Positions 6,118-34,564 of a DNA stretch of 64,000 nt are shown one piece after another; the first letter of the stretch is position 1, and each line of letters begins with the position of its first letter. The translations under genes and the position numbers were made by a program. The stretch lies in the UHGV virus genome UHGV-1351770; one strand, given 5' to 3'. The DNA is from a virus. Below the pieces are notes generated by a model. It was not told the origin of the DNA. It did not search any database and saw nothing but the letters and a program-made list of their open reading frames with translations.

Positions 6118-6462
6118 ATGGTTATTTATGAAGGCAATCGTTTTGTTGCTAATTGCCGTCCGGCATTATTAGCAAACTACTTAAATCAGCTTTCCCCAGT
6201 TTATAAGGGTGTTATTAATATTTATGAGGGAAAGGCGCATTATAAAATCAATGTGGTCGTTGCCCGTGAACTAGCATTTCAATTTTTGACCTTTGCATCT
6301 TGTGACGTTCAGGTTATGGGTGAGGCATTAATTGCAGAAAATGAAGATGATTTTATTAATATTTTCCGCAAGGTGTGCACCGAACGCCTGATAATGAAAG
6401 GCGCGTATATTCAATCCACTGCGGATAGTATTGAAACAGCGTTTCGAAAGGTGGCGCAATGA
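6118..6462 (+). CDS. Hypothetical protein (114 aa)
   Basis: ORF; start adjusted to ATG 6118 one nt after upstream stop with GGGGTG RBS. Confidence 0.5.
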   Translation: MVIYEGNRFVANCRPALLANYLNQLSPVYKGVINIYEGKAHYKINVVVARELAFQFLTFASCDVQVMGEALIAENEDDFINIFRKVCTERLIMKGAYIQSTADSIETAFRKVAQ

Positions 6463-27001: not shown

Positions 27002-27751
27002 ATTAACATTTTACAGTAGAACGTTTACCATTTCTAGGCGCACCTGGAAGTCGAGCACGTTCTGCCATTCTTCTCTTAATCTTTGAGATATTTTCTAGTG
27101 TTTGTTCTTCAGGCTTAATGCCTGAAACACTACACCACTGATTACCATCCCATGCAGTAATGATCATAACACCATTACCCATAATCTTTTCTGTGAAAGT
27201 AATTCTCATTATAGCAACTCGTCTAAGCAAGAGGTATATTTAAATTTACCATCTTTATCTACTTTGATTTCAACCTCCGCTCGTGGTACTTGACGAACTA
27301 CACCATGAATCATCTTATAGCGAATGCCTTTAGCTGGTTCACGATCTTTTGGAAATACTTGCTTAACCGTTACTACCTTGTACTCATCATGCGGTGTTAG
27401 TACAACTACTTGATCGCCCTCTTTGATTTTCCAAGAGCCAGGAAATTCGTAAGTATAACGTTGACCACCAGTTTGGAACACAACAGAAAGATAACGTTTC
27501 ATTTGGTTTCCCTCTCATTAATTTATATAAATATTATAACAAGAAATAAGAGAGAAGGCAAATGAATTTTTAATAAAGTTTAGTCACTTCATAAACTATA
27601 CTACGAGATTCTTTATTACGTTGTATTAAATTAGCGTATGCTTCTTCAGCTTCATTTTTAGTATTAAAGTCTATAACGTGGGAGGTATTAGTTCTGTTTG
27701 ATTGGCTATACCAGATAACTACTAGGAGTTTAAACATACTAGTCCTTAAAT

Positions 27752-27838
27752 TGGTGCTGGGCACAGGATTCGAACCTGCAACGGGATTACTCCTCCTGAT
27801 TACAAATCAGGTGCATTCAACCATTCTGCCAACCCAGC
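27752..27838 (-). tRNA. 87-nt class II-type tRNA (3-bp D-stem, 11-nt D-loop, 15-nt variable arm, A73) carrying anticodon TGT (Thr codons)
   Basis: Manual fold: acceptor GCTGGGT/GCCCAGC, anticodon stem CCTGA/TCAGG, loop TTTGTAA. Confidence 0.55.
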
Positions 27839-27846
27839 AGAACCCG

Positions 27847-28011
27847 TTATTTCAACGGGATTTCTTTTTCAATAACAGGAGACTTATCAGTCATGACTGT
27901 CATTGCCATTTGTTGTAGAAATTCAAAGGTGAAGGCTACACGTTCTTCACCAATCTCTACTTCTACACGTTTCTTTTGTTTGTCGATCTTAACTTTTAGG
28001 TTATCAGCCAT
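27847..28011 (-). CDS. Hypothetical protein (54 aa)
   Basis: ORF below track cutoff; manual translation. Confidence 0.3.
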   Translation of the reverse strand: MADNLKVKIDKQKKRVEVEIGEERVAFTFEFLQQMAMTVMTDKSPVIEKEIPLK

Positions 28012-32026: not shown

Positions 32027-32109
32027 TGGCGGGCCGTGTAGGATTCGAACCTACGTTGTCTTTCGACATGGATTAACAGTCCACCGCCAAACCGCTTGGC
32101 TAACGACCC
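32027..32109 (-). tRNA. 83-nt tRNA with anticodon GTT (Asn codons), a 13-nt variable arm (GTC-GAAA-GAC hairpin) and G73
   Basis: Manual fold; D-stem GCCA/TGGC; anticodon stem GTGGA/TCCAT, loop CTGTTAA; perfect T-stem. Confidence 0.6.
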
Positions 32110-33905: not shown

Positions 33906-33982
33906 TTGGTAGGGGTGGTGGGATTCGAACCCACAAAACCTGAATTTTAAGTCCAGTACCTATGCCAATTCGATTACACCCC
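33906..33982 (-). tRNA. 77-nt class I-type tRNA with anticodon TAA (Leu codons UUA/UUG) and A73, lacking the long variable arm of canonical tRNA-Leu
   Basis: Manual fold; perfect T-stem GTGGG/CCCAC; anticodon stem CTGGA/TTCAG, loop CTTAAAA; weak D-arm. Confidence 0.5.
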
Positions 33983-34084
33983 CATGTAATCAGTTTATTA
34001 GTTGATACATATTATAGCCTAGAGAAAACCCTACTACTAATCCTACGAACCAACCAATATAATAATCTTTTAGTTTCACAGGTA

Positions 34085-34486: not shown

Positions 34487-34564
34487 TGGTGGCTCCCCGA
34501 GGATTCGAACCTACGTACCTTCCGGTTATGAGCCGGGTGCTCATACCATATGAGCTTGAGAACC
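34487..34564 (-). tRNA. tRNA with CAT anticodon (third CAT species), weak T-stem
   Basis: Manual fold; acceptor GGTTCTC/GGGAGCC with 2 GU; perfect D-stem GCTC/GAGC; anticodon stem CCGG/CCGG, loop CTCATAA. Confidence 0.55.

What the first reader, a model, noticed from the sequence alone, without database searches (positions are those of the whole stretch)
27752..27838. Class II (Leu-like) tRNA body carrying a Thr anticodon
This 87-nt tRNA has a 3-bp D-stem, an 11-nt D-loop (GAATGGTTGAA, resembling E. coli tRNA-Leu), a 15-nt variable arm and A73. These are LeuRS identity features, and LeuRS ignores the anticodon. Its anticodon is UGU, which reads ACA/ACG. Part of the variable-arm sequence (AACGGGATT) is duplicated just outside the gene. 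If LeuRS charges it, it would insert Leu at Thr codons. If ThrRS charges it, it is a structurally anomalous tRNA-Thr. Either is unusual.
Basis: partly seen in the sequence, partly recalled or inferred. Interest (0 to 1): 0.6.

Follow-up and report, generated by a model that had tools for sequence, protein, structure and literature searches.

The report
Long-armed threonine tRNA in T5-like phage
This phage gene is a real threonine tRNA with an extra arm normally seen only in leucine, serine and tyrosine tRNAs; it almost certainly still carries threonine, and it belongs to a widespread family in phages and bacteria that the reviews I could search do not describe.

Summary
Window 27752-27838 (- strand) encodes an 87-nt tRNA with anticodon UGU, a 3-bp D-stem, an 11-nt D-loop, a 15-nt variable arm, A73 and an encoded CCA.

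The "Leu-like, possibly leucylated" reading is not supported.
- The D-loop has the Ser/Tyr register, not the Leu one, and lacks A20a.
- The variable arm (3-bp stem, GNRA loop, 4 unpaired 3' nt) resembles E. coli tRNA-Tyr.
- The acceptor stem and anticodon carry the bacterial ThrRS determinants: G1-C72, C2-G71, G4-C69, G5-C68, G35, U36.

Comparative evidence points to threonine.
- In T5 and BF23 a canonical 75-nt tRNA-Thr(UGU) sits at exactly this locus, so the two forms are alternative alleles.
- I found 125 distinct class II tRNA-Thr(UGU) sequences in phages, metagenomes and 67 bacterial species genomes (mostly Eremiobacterota and Acetobacteraceae).
- Across them the helices covary strongly, G1-C72 and C2-G71 are near-invariant, and position 73 is U or A (C once), never G.

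Host tRNA-Thr(UGU) is a published target of the PARIS AriB and P2-OLD antiphage nucleases. Phage Bas33 carries only this allele, and published data show it needs only added tRNA-Lys to escape PARIS.

Most likely this is a functional, ThrRS-charged replacement tRNA. The 10-nt repeat looks coincidental.

The parts
27752..27838 (-). Class II tRNA-Thr(UGU) gene, 87 nt, CCA encoded
   Evidence: ARAGORN; Rfam RF00005 58.9 bits; 100% identical in many T5-like phages annotated tRNA-Thr.
27802..27804 (-). Anticodon UGU, in loop UUUGUAA with U33 and A37
   Evidence: The anticodon arm CCUGA-UUUGUAA-UCAGG is nearly identical to E. coli thrU ACUGA-CUUGUAA-UCAGU.
27813..27829 (-). D-arm GCA-GAAUGGUUGAA-UGC: 3-bp stem, 11-nt loop, Ser/Tyr-type G18G19 register
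   Evidence: A scan of IMG/VR with this D-arm motif returned 92 tRNA-Ser out of 114 tRNAs and only 1 tRNA-Leu.
27780..27794 (-). Variable arm AGGAGUAAUCCCGUU: 1 nt, then a 3-bp stem GGA/UCC, then GUAA loop, then 4 unpaired nt ending in U48
   Evidence: The same architecture dominates 77 distinct family variable arms, and it resembles the E. coli tRNA-Tyr variable arm.
27752..27762 (-). 3' acceptor strand GCCCAGC, discriminator A73 (27755) and CCA (27752-27754)
   Evidence: Together with 27832-27838 it forms G1-C72, C2-G71, U3-A70, G4-C69, G5-C68, which covers the four bacterial ThrRS acceptor determinants in Table 1 of PMC9976931.
27841..27862 (-). Conserved hairpin just 5' of the tRNA (stem CCCGUU/AACGGG). 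It holds the stop codon of the upstream ORF and the second copy of AATCCCGTTG. On the + strand it looks like an intrinsic terminator.
   Evidence: Fold -9.1 kcal/mol, z = -3.0; terminator-like on +; compensatory change CCCATT/AATGGG in BF23, which lacks the class II tRNA.
27574..27843 (-). Allelic cassette of about 270 nt (class II tRNA plus a small ORF) that replaces the roughly 85-nt segment holding the canonical 75-nt tRNA-Thr(UGU) of T5 and BF23. Boundaries are approximate.
   Evidence: Three-way alignment A2: the flanks are collinear and the interior is unrelated. Annotations of AJ604531, AJ604530, AY543070 and OR083247 agree.
27570..27737 (-). 55-aa ORF (homolog of 'ORF trn 2.19.-1') present with the class II allele in the four annotated or aligned genomes examined; function unknown
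   Evidence: phrog_15108, E = 2e-39, unknown function; absent from T5 and BF23 at this position.
27847..28011 (-). 54-aa ORF (homolog of 'ORF trn 2.18') immediately upstream; marks the conserved left flank of the locus
   Evidence: phrog_5919; present next to both alleles.
27533..27561 (-). Sigma-70-like promoter (annotated P11 in phage 5, T5 and BF23); marks the conserved right flank
   Evidence: TTGCCT-17-TATAAT, 10 of 12 matches, with TG; annotations.

Best explanation
This is a functional phage tRNA-Thr(UGU) built on a class II (long variable arm) scaffold. SHOWN BY SEQUENCE AND COMPARISON: it folds as a standard 7/5 cloverleaf with a Ser/Tyr-type D-arm and a short Tyr-like variable arm. 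Its acceptor stem and anticodon carry the bacterial ThrRS determinants. It occupies the exact locus where T5 and BF23 carry a canonical 75-nt tRNA-Thr(UGU). It belongs to a large covarying family of class II tRNA-Thr(UGU) genes found in phage tRNA arrays and in bacterial chromosomes. INFERRED: host ThrRS charges it through G1-C72, C2-G71, G4-C69, G5-C68 and G35-U36, which lie away from the D and variable arms. It then reads ACA (and ACG), which is 22% of the phage's Thr codons. Its role in infection is to keep ACA decoding going when the scarce host tRNA-Thr(UGU) is limiting or destroyed. That host tRNA is a published prime target of the PARIS AriB and P2-OLD Toprim nucleases. MORE SPECULATIVE: this allele keeps the host-like cleavage motifs in its anticodon stem, so any nuclease resistance would have to come from the altered D-loop and the protruding variable arm, not from cleavage-site mutations as in the canonical T5 allele.
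For: 1) It is a real tRNA. 2) Six of the seven bacterial Thr determinants listed in PMC9976931 Table 1 are present; the missing one, G34, is also absent from host thrU. The anticodon arm matches E. coli thrU in 4 of 5 stem pairs and 6 of 7 loop bases, and the first four acceptor pairs equal E. coli thrT. 3) Same-locus replacement: T5 (AY543070) and BF23 carry a 75-nt tRNA-Thr(UGU) between the same hairpin and promoter P11. About 103 phage records hold at least 80% of the class II tRNA, nearly all of them T5-like, and about 311 hold the canonical allele at 90% identity or more. Only one tRNA-Thr is present in the window and in Bas33. 4) Family: 188 hits giving 125 distinct class II tRNA-Thr(UGU) sequences, from Aeromonas T4-like phages, metagenomes and 67 bacterial species genomes. 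G1-C72 occurs in 122 of 125, C2-G71 in 119 of 125, and N73 is U in 89, A in 35 and C in 1, never G. In the 70-sequence alignment 99% of cells are paired, 18 of 21 pairs show double changes, and 0 of 500 shuffles reach the observed values; the 15-48 pair covaries G-C with A-U. 5) Chromosomal, housekeeping-type context: in Eremiobacterota the gene sits next to the Tyr-Gly-Thr(GGU) cluster and nusG/L1, and in a Roseomonas isolate next to moeA. 6) The tRNA is more conserved than its flanks (100% against 96.7% in Bas33), and the variants seen keep the structure. 7) In vivo, indirect: Bas33 is HildyBeyeler. It encodes only this allele and no tRNA-Lys(UUU). PMC12409363 reports that T5 tRNA-Lys(UUU) alone rescues Bas33 from PARIS, whereas T7 needs Lys plus Thr(UGU). 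8) A GenBank note for phage 5 says a CUA-anticodon version is an effective amber suppressor. If it was tested on this tRNA, the scaffold works in E. coli translation.
Against: No aminoacylation data exist for this tRNA, so ThrRS charging is inferred from determinants and synteny. Whether E. coli ThrRS tolerates a long variable arm is untested. A73 and A15-U48 are two genuine LeuRS elements. The anticodon stem keeps both the AriB site U36AAUC|A41 and the P2-OLD CNG pair (C28UG30 / C40AG42), so by the published sequence rules it should be cleavable. The Bas33 rescue is only consistent with resistance, because the authors note that phages differ in their sensitivity to tRNA depletion. I could not scan whole bacterial genomes to show that the class II gene is their only tRNA-Thr(UGU).
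Confidence: 0.8

Rival explanations
1. One reading: LeuRS charges it, because LeuRS ignores the anticodon, so it inserts Leu at ACA/ACG. This would be a phage missense-recoding tRNA analogous to nematode nev-tRNAs.
For: Class II body, A73 and a possible A15-U48 Levitt pair, which are two of the E. coli LeuRS elements. The GenBank note that a CUA version suppresses amber efficiently would fit an anticodon-blind synthetase. Nev-tRNAs are a precedent (PMC3333845 abstract; PMC4033280).
Against: The D-loop register is 3 nt before and 4 after G18G19 with U20a. That differs from the Leu-type 4-before, 3-after register with A20a, which is listed as essential and is kept by E. coli leuV and by both phage tRNA-Leu genes, including the 77-nt one without a long arm. 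A D-arm motif scan returned 92 tRNA-Ser and 1 tRNA-Leu. Family members mostly have U73 and G15-C48. The acceptor and anticodon arms are Thr-type. The gene replaces a canonical tRNA-Thr at the same locus. ACA makes up 11.4 per 1000 codons in this phage, so efficient Leu insertion would hit most proteins.
Confidence: 0.03
2. Dual or ambiguous identity: it is mainly threonylated but is also partly mischarged by an enzyme that recognises class II bodies (SerRS or, less likely, TyrRS), giving low-level Ser at ACA codons.
For: The D-arm is Ser-type, C11-G24 and G30-C40 are present, and the variable arm is Tyr-like with A73. The amber-suppressor note suggests charging without the Thr anticodon.
Against: SerRS determinants G73 and G2-C71 are absent, and C2-G71 is a listed antideterminant against SerRS. 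The variable stem is 3 bp against 5 bp in E. coli serT. TyrRS needs G34 and U35. From general knowledge, ThrRS edits Ser-tRNA-Thr.
Confidence: 0.07
3. It acts mainly as a decoy or competitive inhibitor of tRNA-targeting defence nucleases, or serves another non-decoding role. It presents a host-like anticodon arm without needing to be an efficient translation substrate.
For: The anticodon stem-loop keeps the exact AriB and P2-OLD target motifs of host thrU. The PARIS authors raise competition by viral tRNAs as a possibility.
Against: Full conservation of ThrRS determinants, the T-loop, the G18G19 tertiary contacts and the encoded CCA, plus covariation of all helices in chromosomal homologs, indicate selection for a working translational tRNA. 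For the canonical phage tRNA-Thr tested, P2-OLD rescue was by replacement, not protection.
Confidence: 0.06
4. It is a decaying or non-functional tRNA-like relic, for example a tRNA-Ser or tRNA-Tyr gene with a mutated anticodon, or an insertion artefact created by duplication of the neighbouring AATCCCGTTG sequence.
For: The 10-nt repeat lies within 75 nt. The T5 tRNA region is mosaic and rich in homing endonucleases.
Against: About 103 phage records hold at least 80% of it, 94 of all matching records at 95% identity or more. Compensatory changes occur across the family. The variable-arm sequence GGAGUAAUCCCAUU occurs in unrelated metagenomic tRNA arrays that lack the hairpin. The hairpin occurs in T5 and BF23 without this tRNA. 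Variable-arm variants do not co-vary with the hairpin.
Confidence: 0.02

Closest known systems
Canonical tRNA-Thr(UGU): E. coli thrU and the 75-nt T5/BF23 phage allele
   Same: Anticodon UGU, A37, G1-C72, C2-G71 and A73. The anticodon arm is almost identical to thrU. It sits at the same genomic locus as the T5/BF23 gene, and it is annotated tRNA-Thr in GenBank since AJ604531.
   Different: 3-bp D-stem with an 11-nt D-loop instead of 4 bp with 8-9 nt. A 15-nt variable arm with a stem instead of a 5-nt loop. It shares no sequence with the T5/BF23 allele beyond the identity positions. Unlike that allele, it keeps the host-type AriB and OLD motifs in the anticodon stem.
Bacterial class II tRNAs: tRNA-Tyr, tRNA-Ser, tRNA-Leu
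   Same: Long variable arm and a 3-bp D-stem with G13.A22. The D-loop register and GGUUGAA motif match tRNA-Ser. The variable-arm design (1 nt, 3-bp stem, small loop, 3-4 unpaired nt) and A73 match E. coli tRNA-Tyr. In Eremiobacterota the gene lies beside tRNA-Tyr and has a similar D-arm.
   Different: The anticodon and acceptor stem are Thr-type. It lacks G73 and G2-C71 (Ser), G34 and U35 (Tyr), and the Leu D-loop register and A20a (Leu).
Nematode nev-tRNAs: class II tRNAs with Gly or Ile anticodons that are leucylated (PMC3333845; PMC4033280)
   Same: A long-variable-arm tRNA carrying an anticodon of a class I amino-acid family.
   Different: Nev-tRNAs keep the identity elements of their class II parent and are charged with Leu, are poorly expressed, and read rare codons. 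Here the acceptor and discriminator match the anticodon's own synthetase, the codon is common, and the gene substitutes for a canonical tRNA-Thr. It works like an ordinary tRNA-Thr, not like a recoding tRNA.
Phage tRNAs that replace host tRNAs destroyed by defence nucleases: T5 tRNA-Lys, Thr and Asn against PARIS AriB; phage tRNA-Thr(UGU) against P2-OLD
   Same: Same isoacceptor as a prime nuclease target, the same phage group, and the same locus as the T5 tRNA-Thr shown to contribute to PARIS escape. Bas33, which carries this allele, needs only tRNA-Lys to escape PARIS.
   Different: The published resistant tRNAs carry substitutions at or near the cleavage site or have a shortened anticodon stem. 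This allele keeps the host sequence there and differs in body architecture instead. Its resistance has not been measured.
allo-tRNAs and tRNA-Sec: non-canonical long-arm tRNAs served by SerRS (PMC5389517; PMC7609411)
   Same: A long variable arm combined with unexpected anticodons, found in bacteria and phages through large-scale searches.
   Different: Those have 8/4 or 9/3 (or 8/5) acceptor/T-stem geometry and Ser identity. This tRNA has the standard 7/5 geometry and no Ser determinants in the acceptor stem.

Membership tests
tRNA (Rfam RF00005) | Cloverleaf scoring above the curated gathering threshold, with T-loop, G18G19 and U8/A14 | tested here: met
   58.9 bits against 29; ARAGORN cloverleaf; all four helices covary in 70 homologs.
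Class II (long variable arm) tRNA | Variable region longer than 10 nt that forms a stem-loop | tested here: met
   15 nt with a GGA/UCC stem and GUAA loop. There are 31 different stem sequences among the family's variable arms.
Class II (long variable arm) tRNA | 3-bp D-stem with a non-Watson-Crick 13-22 pair and an enlarged D-loop | tested here: met
   GCA/UGC, G13.A22, 11-nt loop. Pair 12-23 covaries through five pair types.
Bacterial tRNA-Thr (ThrRS substrate) | Acceptor determinants G1-C72, C2-G71, G4-C69, G5-C68 (PMC9976931 Table 1) | tested here: met
   GCUGGGU/GCCCAGC contains all four. In the family G1-C72 occurs in 122 of 125 and C2-G71 in 119 of 125.
Bacterial tRNA-Thr (ThrRS substrate) | Anticodon determinants G35 and U36 (G34 in GGU isoacceptors) | tested here: met
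   The anticodon is U34 G35 U36. G34 is absent, as it is in host thrU.
Bacterial tRNA-Thr (ThrRS substrate) | Actual threonylation by ThrRS | not testable with these tools
   Needs an aminoacylation assay. The only indirect support is same-locus replacement of a canonical tRNA-Thr and the Bas33 PARIS rescue data.
E. coli tRNA-Leu identity (LeuRS substrate) | Discriminator A73 | tested here: met
   A73 is at 27755. It is not conserved in the family: U73 occurs in 89 of 125.
E. coli tRNA-Leu identity (LeuRS substrate) | A15-U48 Levitt pair | tested here: met
   A15 and U48 are present. Family members mostly have G15-C48 (94 against 22).
E. coli tRNA-Leu identity (LeuRS substrate) | Leu-type placement of G18G19 (4 nt before, 3 after) and A20a in the D-loop | tested here: not met
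   The loop GAAUGGUUGAA has 3 nt before and 4 after G18G19, with U20a. E. coli leuV and both phage tRNA-Leu genes have AAUU/AACU-GG-UAG/CAU.
E. coli tRNA-Ser identity (SerRS substrate) | G73, G2-C71 and a long, correctly oriented variable arm | tested here: not met
   It has A73 and C2-G71, a listed antideterminant against SerRS. The variable stem is 3 bp against 5 bp in serT. C11-G24 and G30-C40 are present.
Bacterial tRNA-Tyr identity (TyrRS substrate) | A73 plus G34 and U35 | tested here: not met
   A73 is present, but the anticodon is UGU, so G34 and U35 are absent.
nev-tRNA-like recoding tRNA (class II tRNA misacylated relative to its anticodon) | Keeps the parent class II identity set while carrying a foreign anticodon | tested here: not met
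   The acceptor and discriminator match the anticodon's own synthetase. The same is true of the class II-bodied Trp (A1-U72, G73) and Cys (U73) phage tRNAs found with the same D-arm motif, and of the long-arm window and Erwinia-phage tRNA-Asn (G73).
Nuclease-resistant phage replacement tRNA (anti-PARIS / anti-OLD) | Same anticodon as a host tRNA targeted by a defence nuclease | tested here: met
   Host tRNA-Thr(UGU) is a prime target of AriB and P2-OLD (PMC12409363, PMC12445682).
Nuclease-resistant phage replacement tRNA (anti-PARIS / anti-OLD) | Substitutions at the cleavage site or a shortened anticodon stem | tested here: not met
   U36AAUC|A41 and C28UG30/C40AG42 are retained. Only the Epseptimavirus variant has a C27.A43 mismatch.
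Nuclease-resistant phage replacement tRNA (anti-PARIS / anti-OLD) | Demonstrated resistance and rescue | tested here: inconclusive
   Bas33 carries only this allele and is rescued from PARIS by tRNA-Lys(UUU) alone. No direct cleavage or rescue test of this tRNA was found.

The most novel reading that the evidence does not exclude
Class II tRNA-Thr(UGU) is an unrecognised natural lineage. It is the apparent housekeeping tRNA-Thr(UGU) in Eremiobacterota and some Acetobacteraceae, and it circulates in phage tRNA arrays. In T5-like phages the long variable arm and remodelled D-loop act as a structural shield. They would let a tRNA with a fully host-like anticodon stem escape anticodon-arm Toprim nucleases (PARIS AriB, P2-OLD). 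This would be a second escape route alongside the cleavage-site mutations of the canonical T5 allele. The variable-arm-bearing tRNA-Asn of the same phage, another AriB target isoacceptor, would be a parallel case.
Probability: 0.3. Interest if true: 0.75.

Novelty: new variant of a known kind. Interest (0 to 1): 0.55.

Why it matters
Reviews state that long variable arms are confined to tRNA-Leu, tRNA-Ser, bacterial tRNA-Tyr and tRNA-Sec, and that bacterial tRNA genes are structurally uniform (PMC4033280, PMC7609411, PMC4810241). A conserved, covarying class II tRNA-Thr(UGU) family in phages and in whole bacterial lineages would be an exception.
- It bears on how ThrRS, a class II synthetase, accommodates a long arm.
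- It bears on tRNA annotation and isotype-mismatch flags.
- It bears on the design of orthogonal tRNAs.

For phage biology it exposes a natural two-allele polymorphism at the T5 tRNA-Thr locus: canonical with a mutated cleavage site, or class II with the host-like site. That isoacceptor is the one two E. coli defence nucleases attack. The polymorphism gives a directly testable question about how those nucleases recognise tRNA shape as opposed to sequence. It does not appear to be a case of deliberate mistranslation.

Tried and rejected
- A blastn search of the tRNA against 5,426 E. coli genomes found nothing. I fetched thrU, thrT, tyrU, leuV and serT directly instead.
- The MFE fold of the isolated sequence is not a cloverleaf. 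I disregarded it in favour of the ARAGORN and Rfam structure and the covariation.
- The weak Rfam hits sX4 and anti-hemB are far below threshold and reflect the tRNA-like and terminator parts.
- I rejected the idea that the variable arm arose by duplication of the upstream AATCCCGTTG, or that the two copies interact. The hairpin exists with a compensatory change in T5 and BF23 without this tRNA. Variable-arm variants (CCCACU, CCCAUU) keep an unchanged hairpin. The same variable-arm sequence occurs in unrelated metagenomic arrays.
- I did not use the GenBank "effective amber suppressor" note as evidence for LeuRS. The identical wording sits on BF23's canonical tRNA-Thr, T5's canonical one says the opposite, and a CUA anticodon creates U35, which favours TyrRS or GlnRS.
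- Seven literature searches for a class II or long-arm tRNA-Thr, or for any study of the phage tRNA-Thr itself, returned nothing relevant.
- Supplements of the PARIS and OLD papers are not held, so I could not check whether this allele was in their tRNA panels.
Full report
**Observation.** The window is part of a T5-like phage (Tequintavirus). The 601-nt query window:27500-28100 is 98.3% identical to Citrobacter phage Cit2 and 96.7% to Escherichia phage HildyBeyeler. It carries a cluster of 21-22 tRNA genes on the - strand. ARAGORN calls an 87-nt tRNA-Thr(tgt) at 27752-27838, and Rfam's tRNA model scores it 58.9 bits against a threshold of 29.
- 7-bp acceptor stem GCUGGGU/GCCCAGC
- 3-bp D-stem GCA/UGC with G13.A22
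- 11-nt D-loop GAAUGGUUGAA
- anticodon arm CCUGA-UUUGUAA-UCAGG
- 15-nt variable arm AGGAGUAAUCCCGUU (GGA/UCC stem, GUAA loop, four unpaired 3' nt)
- normal T-arm, A73 and an encoded CCA

The 10-mer AATCCCGTTG occurs twice in the window, 74 nt apart.

**Which synthetase does the body fit?** I compared it with E. coli K-12 thrU, thrT, tyrU, leuV and serT and with the identity sets compiled by Giege and Eriani (PMC9976931).

| Synthetase | Elements present | Elements absent |
|---|---|---|
| ThrRS | G1-C72, C2-G71, G4-C69, G5-C68, G35, U36 | G34 (also absent from host thrU) |
| LeuRS | A73, A15-U48 | A20a (U20a here); Leu-type placement of G18G19 |
| SerRS | C11-G24, G30-C40, R4-Y69 | G73, G2-C71; variable stem 3 bp against 5 bp in serT |
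| TyrRS | A73 | G34, U35 |

- The anticodon arm is nearly that of thrU (ACUGA-CUUGUAA-UCAGU), and the first four acceptor pairs equal those of thrT.
- G18G19 sit three nucleotides into the D-loop with four after them. E. coli leuV has four before and three after. Both of this phage's tRNA-Leu genes keep that Leu-type register, including a 77-nt tRNA-Leu(UAA) that has no long arm at all.
- C2-G71 is a listed antideterminant against SerRS.
- The D-loop is therefore Ser/Tyr-type, not Leu-type. A scan of IMG/VR with the D-arm motif GCARARWGGYTGAATGCA returned 114 tRNAs. Of these, 92 were tRNA-Ser, 12 tRNA-Thr(UGU), 3 tRNA-Cys, 2 tRNA-Trp, 1 tRNA-Tyr and 1 tRNA-Leu.
- The variable arm has the design of E. 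coli tRNA-Tyr (C-GUC-ACA-GAC-UUC), not of tRNA-Leu or tRNA-Ser, which have 5-bp stems and one unpaired 3' nucleotide.

**Same-locus alleles in T5-like phages.** Prototype T5 (AY543070) and BF23 (OR083247, AJ604530) carry a canonical 75-nt tRNA-Thr(UGU) between the 54-aa ORF trn 2.18 and promoter P11. The window, Salmonella phage 5 (AJ604531, deposited by the Ksenzenko laboratory and annotated tRNA-Thr) and many others carry the 87-nt gene at exactly that place.
- A three-way alignment shows collinear flanks. The interior differs: about 270 nt (class II tRNA plus a 55-aa ORF of unknown function, phrog_15108) against about 85 nt.
- The two tRNAs share essentially only G1-C72, C2-G71, U3-A70, A73 and the anticodon.
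- About 103 phage records hold at least 80% of the class II tRNA, nearly all of them T5-like. About 311 hold the canonical allele at 90% identity or more.
- The window and HildyBeyeler each have a single tRNA-Thr.
- The tRNA is better conserved than its surroundings (100% against 96.7% in HildyBeyeler). The few variants are in loops or are compatible with pairing.

Two interchangeable genes with the same anticodon at one locus argue strongly for the same function.

**A wider family.** The same architecture occurs at 77% identity in T4-like Aeromonas phages (PX29, Ah1), next to tRNA-Tyr in their tRNA arrays. The pattern GCNRARNGGYTGAANGC-N6-YTTGTAA found matches in two further collections:
- 67 bacterial species genomes, mostly Eremiobacterota/Vulcanimicrobiota and Acetobacteraceae, including the isolate Roseomonas sp. 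KE0001

ARAGORN returned a gene for 188 of the 199 matched stretches, and every one was tRNA-Thr(tgt), 80-94 nt long. The 125 distinct sequences have these features:

| Feature | Count |
|---|---|
| G1-C72 | 122 of 125 |
| C2-G71 | 119 of 125 |
| Position 73 | U 89, A 35, C 1, never G |
| 15-48 pair | G-C 94, A-U 22 |
| Variable arm | usually 13-15 nt: 1 nt, 3-bp stem, GNRA loop, 3-4 unpaired nt |

On a 70-sequence alignment, 99% of cells form standard pairs and 18 of 21 pairs show changes on both sides. The 15-48 pair switches cleanly between G-C and A-U. No shuffle of 500 reaches the observed values, and slid controls collapse to 27-45% paired.

In Eremiobacterota the gene lies beside the Tyr-Gly-Thr(GGU) tRNA cluster and close to nusG and ribosomal protein L1. 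In the Roseomonas isolate it lies beside moeA. These are ordinary chromosomal contexts, not prophage ones. U73 in most members rules out Leu identity for the family.

Other long-arm tRNAs behave the same way, with acceptor and discriminator features cognate to their own anticodon:
- a tRNA-Trp(CCA) with A1-U72 and G73 and a tRNA-Asn with G73, both in Erwinia phage pEp_SNUABM_01
- tRNA-Cys(GCA) with U73 in IMG/VR contigs
- the window's own tRNA-Asn with G73

This is the opposite of the nematode nev-tRNA situation, where the class II parent's Leu identity is kept (PMC3333845, PMC4033280).

**The repeat.** The upstream copy of AATCCCGTTG is the 5' arm of a stable hairpin (-9.1 kcal/mol, z = -3.0). 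The hairpin contains the stop codon of ORF trn 2.18 and reads as an intrinsic terminator on the + strand. Three findings point to coincidence:
- The hairpin is present in T5 and, with a compensatory change (CCCATT/AATGGG), in BF23. Both lack the class II tRNA.
- T5-like variable-arm variants (CCCACU, CCCAUU) sit next to an unchanged hairpin.
- Variable arms reading GGAGUAAUCCCAUU or GGAGAAAUCCCGUU occur in unrelated metagenomic tRNA arrays with no such hairpin.

Both sequences therefore pre-exist independently. I treat the repeat as coincidental.

**What it is for.** ACA makes up 22% of Thr codons in the window's long ORFs, or 11.4 per 1000 codons. [quoted passage not shown]
- PARIS AriB cuts between positions 40 and 41 in the sequence U36AAUC|A41. 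It is predicted to contact D-loop U16-U17 with its second subunit. [quoted passage not shown]
- P2-OLD amputates the anticodon arm at a paired CNG motif (positions 28-30 and 40-42). Phage tRNA-Thr(UGU) variants rescue by replacing the degraded host tRNA and restoring ACA decoding (PMC12445682).

The canonical T5/BF23 allele has a mutated site (GUUGC-CUUGUAA-GCAUC). The class II allele keeps the host-like UAAUC|A and the CUG/CAG motifs.

One published result bears on this allele. Bas33 is HildyBeyeler, MZ501074.1. Its only tRNA-Thr is 100% identical to the window's, and it has tRNA-Lys(CUU) but no tRNA-Lys(UUU). The PARIS paper reports that T5 tRNA-Lys(UUU) alone rescues Bas33, whereas T7 needs tRNA-Lys plus tRNA-Thr(UGU). 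This fits a class II tRNA that is functional and not inactivated by AriB. It is indirect, and the authors themselves caution that phages differ in their sensitivity to depletion. If the allele is resistant, the resistance would have to come from the remodelled D-loop (no U17, different register) or the protruding arm. I rate that idea at about 0.3.

**Rivals.**
- Partial mischarging by SerRS or TyrRS cannot be excluded without assays. The key determinants are missing and an antideterminant is present.
- The GenBank note that a CUA-anticodon version is an "effective amber suppressor" shows at most that the scaffold works in translation. The same wording is attached to BF23's canonical tRNA-Thr, and the opposite wording to T5's. 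A CUA anticodon also introduces U35, a TyrRS/GlnRS element.
- A pure decoy role or a pseudogene is contradicted by the conservation of all features needed for charging and decoding.

**Novelty and limits.** The gene has been annotated as tRNA-Thr since 2004, so the object is not new. None of the reviews or searches available to me mentions a class II tRNA-Thr, and reviews state that long arms are confined to Leu, Ser, bacterial Tyr and Sec. My literature access is partial, so the family may be noted elsewhere. Charging was not and cannot be tested here. I also could not verify that the bacterial genomes lack a canonical tRNA-Thr(UGU).

**Verdict.** This is a real and unusual tRNA, but it most likely works as an ordinary threonine tRNA. 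It is interesting mainly as a member of an under-described class II tRNA-Thr family, and as one of two alleles at a locus that sits in the middle of a known phage-host tRNA arms race.

Noticed in passing
window 32027-32109 (-): tRNA-Asn(GUU) is 83 nt with a 13-nt variable arm (GUC-GAAA-GAC plus AAC) and G73. BF23's tRNA-Asn is 78 nt and Bas33's is 86 nt. It keeps the host-like U36AAUC|C41 sequence, and tRNA-Asn(GUU) is another published AriB target. This may be a second class I isoacceptor with a long arm in the same phage.
   Followed up: partly
window 33907-33983 (-): tRNA-Leu(UAA) is only 77 nt with a 5-nt variable loop, so it is a class I-like tRNA-Leu. It keeps A73 and the Leu-type D-loop (AAUU-GG-CAU). 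BF23's tRNA-Leu(UAG) is also 77 nt, whereas the window's tRNA-Leu(UAG) is 85 nt. Variable-arm length is labile in T5-like tRNA sets.
   Followed up: partly
window 34490-34564 (-): Rfam finds a 22nd tRNA (40.3 bits, anticodon loop CUCAUAA, anticodon CAU) that ARAGORN did not report. It is annotated tRNA-Met in Bas33.
   Followed up: no
window 27570-27737 (-): A 55-aa ORF (phrog_15108, unknown function) accompanies the class II tRNA-Thr allele in the genomes checked (window, phage 5, Bas33; STG2 has a differently sized ORF there). It is absent at this position in T5 and BF23.
   Followed up: partly
window 27841-27862 (-); BF23 L131 about 6200-6225: A hairpin containing the stop codon of ORF trn 2.18 is conserved, with a compensatory G-C to A-U change in BF23. 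On the + strand it is a terminator-like element facing the tRNA cluster.
   Followed up: partly
L003 1492-1578 and 2904-2989 (Erwinia phage pEp_SNUABM_01); IMG/VR hits: Other phage tRNAs combine a long variable arm with class I anticodons and cognate discriminators. On the same Ser-like D-arm are tRNA-Trp(CCA), 87 nt, with A1-U72 and G73, and tRNA-Cys(GCA), 85-89 nt, with U73. tRNA-Asn, 86 nt, with G73 has the long arm but a different D-arm. An annotated 87-nt tRNA-Lys in the same phage was not called by ARAGORN.
   Followed up: partly
L134-L200 (for example L191 168-450, L193 7236-7531, L137 240-7962): In Eremiobacterota the class II tRNA-Thr(UGU) lies divergently beside the tRNA-Tyr-Gly-Thr(GGU) cluster near nusG and rplA. 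Its D-arm resembles that of the neighbouring tRNA-Tyr. This hints at an origin by exchange between adjacent Thr and Tyr genes.
   Followed up: partly
L004 501-587 (Salmonella phage STG2, Epseptimavirus): This class II variant has G43A, giving a C27.A43 mismatch, plus C32. Loss of the 27-43 pair is one of the two changes reported to make a phage tRNA-Thr resistant to P2-OLD.
   Followed up: no
GenBank notes in L001, L132, L133: Ksenzenko-lab records carry per-tRNA notes on whether an amber-anticodon version suppresses. The T5 record misprints the anticodon as 5'-CAU-3'. The notes disagree between the near-identical canonical tRNA-Thr of T5 ('does not') and BF23 ('effective').
   Followed up: partly
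L178 (Planctomycetota MAG contig RFZJ01000085.1) 11-2381: A dense tRNA array (Lys, Cys, Gln, Gln, Lys, Lys, class II Thr of 82 nt, His, Asn) within 2.4 kb. It looks like a mobile or phage-type tRNA array inside a MAG contig.
   Followed up: no
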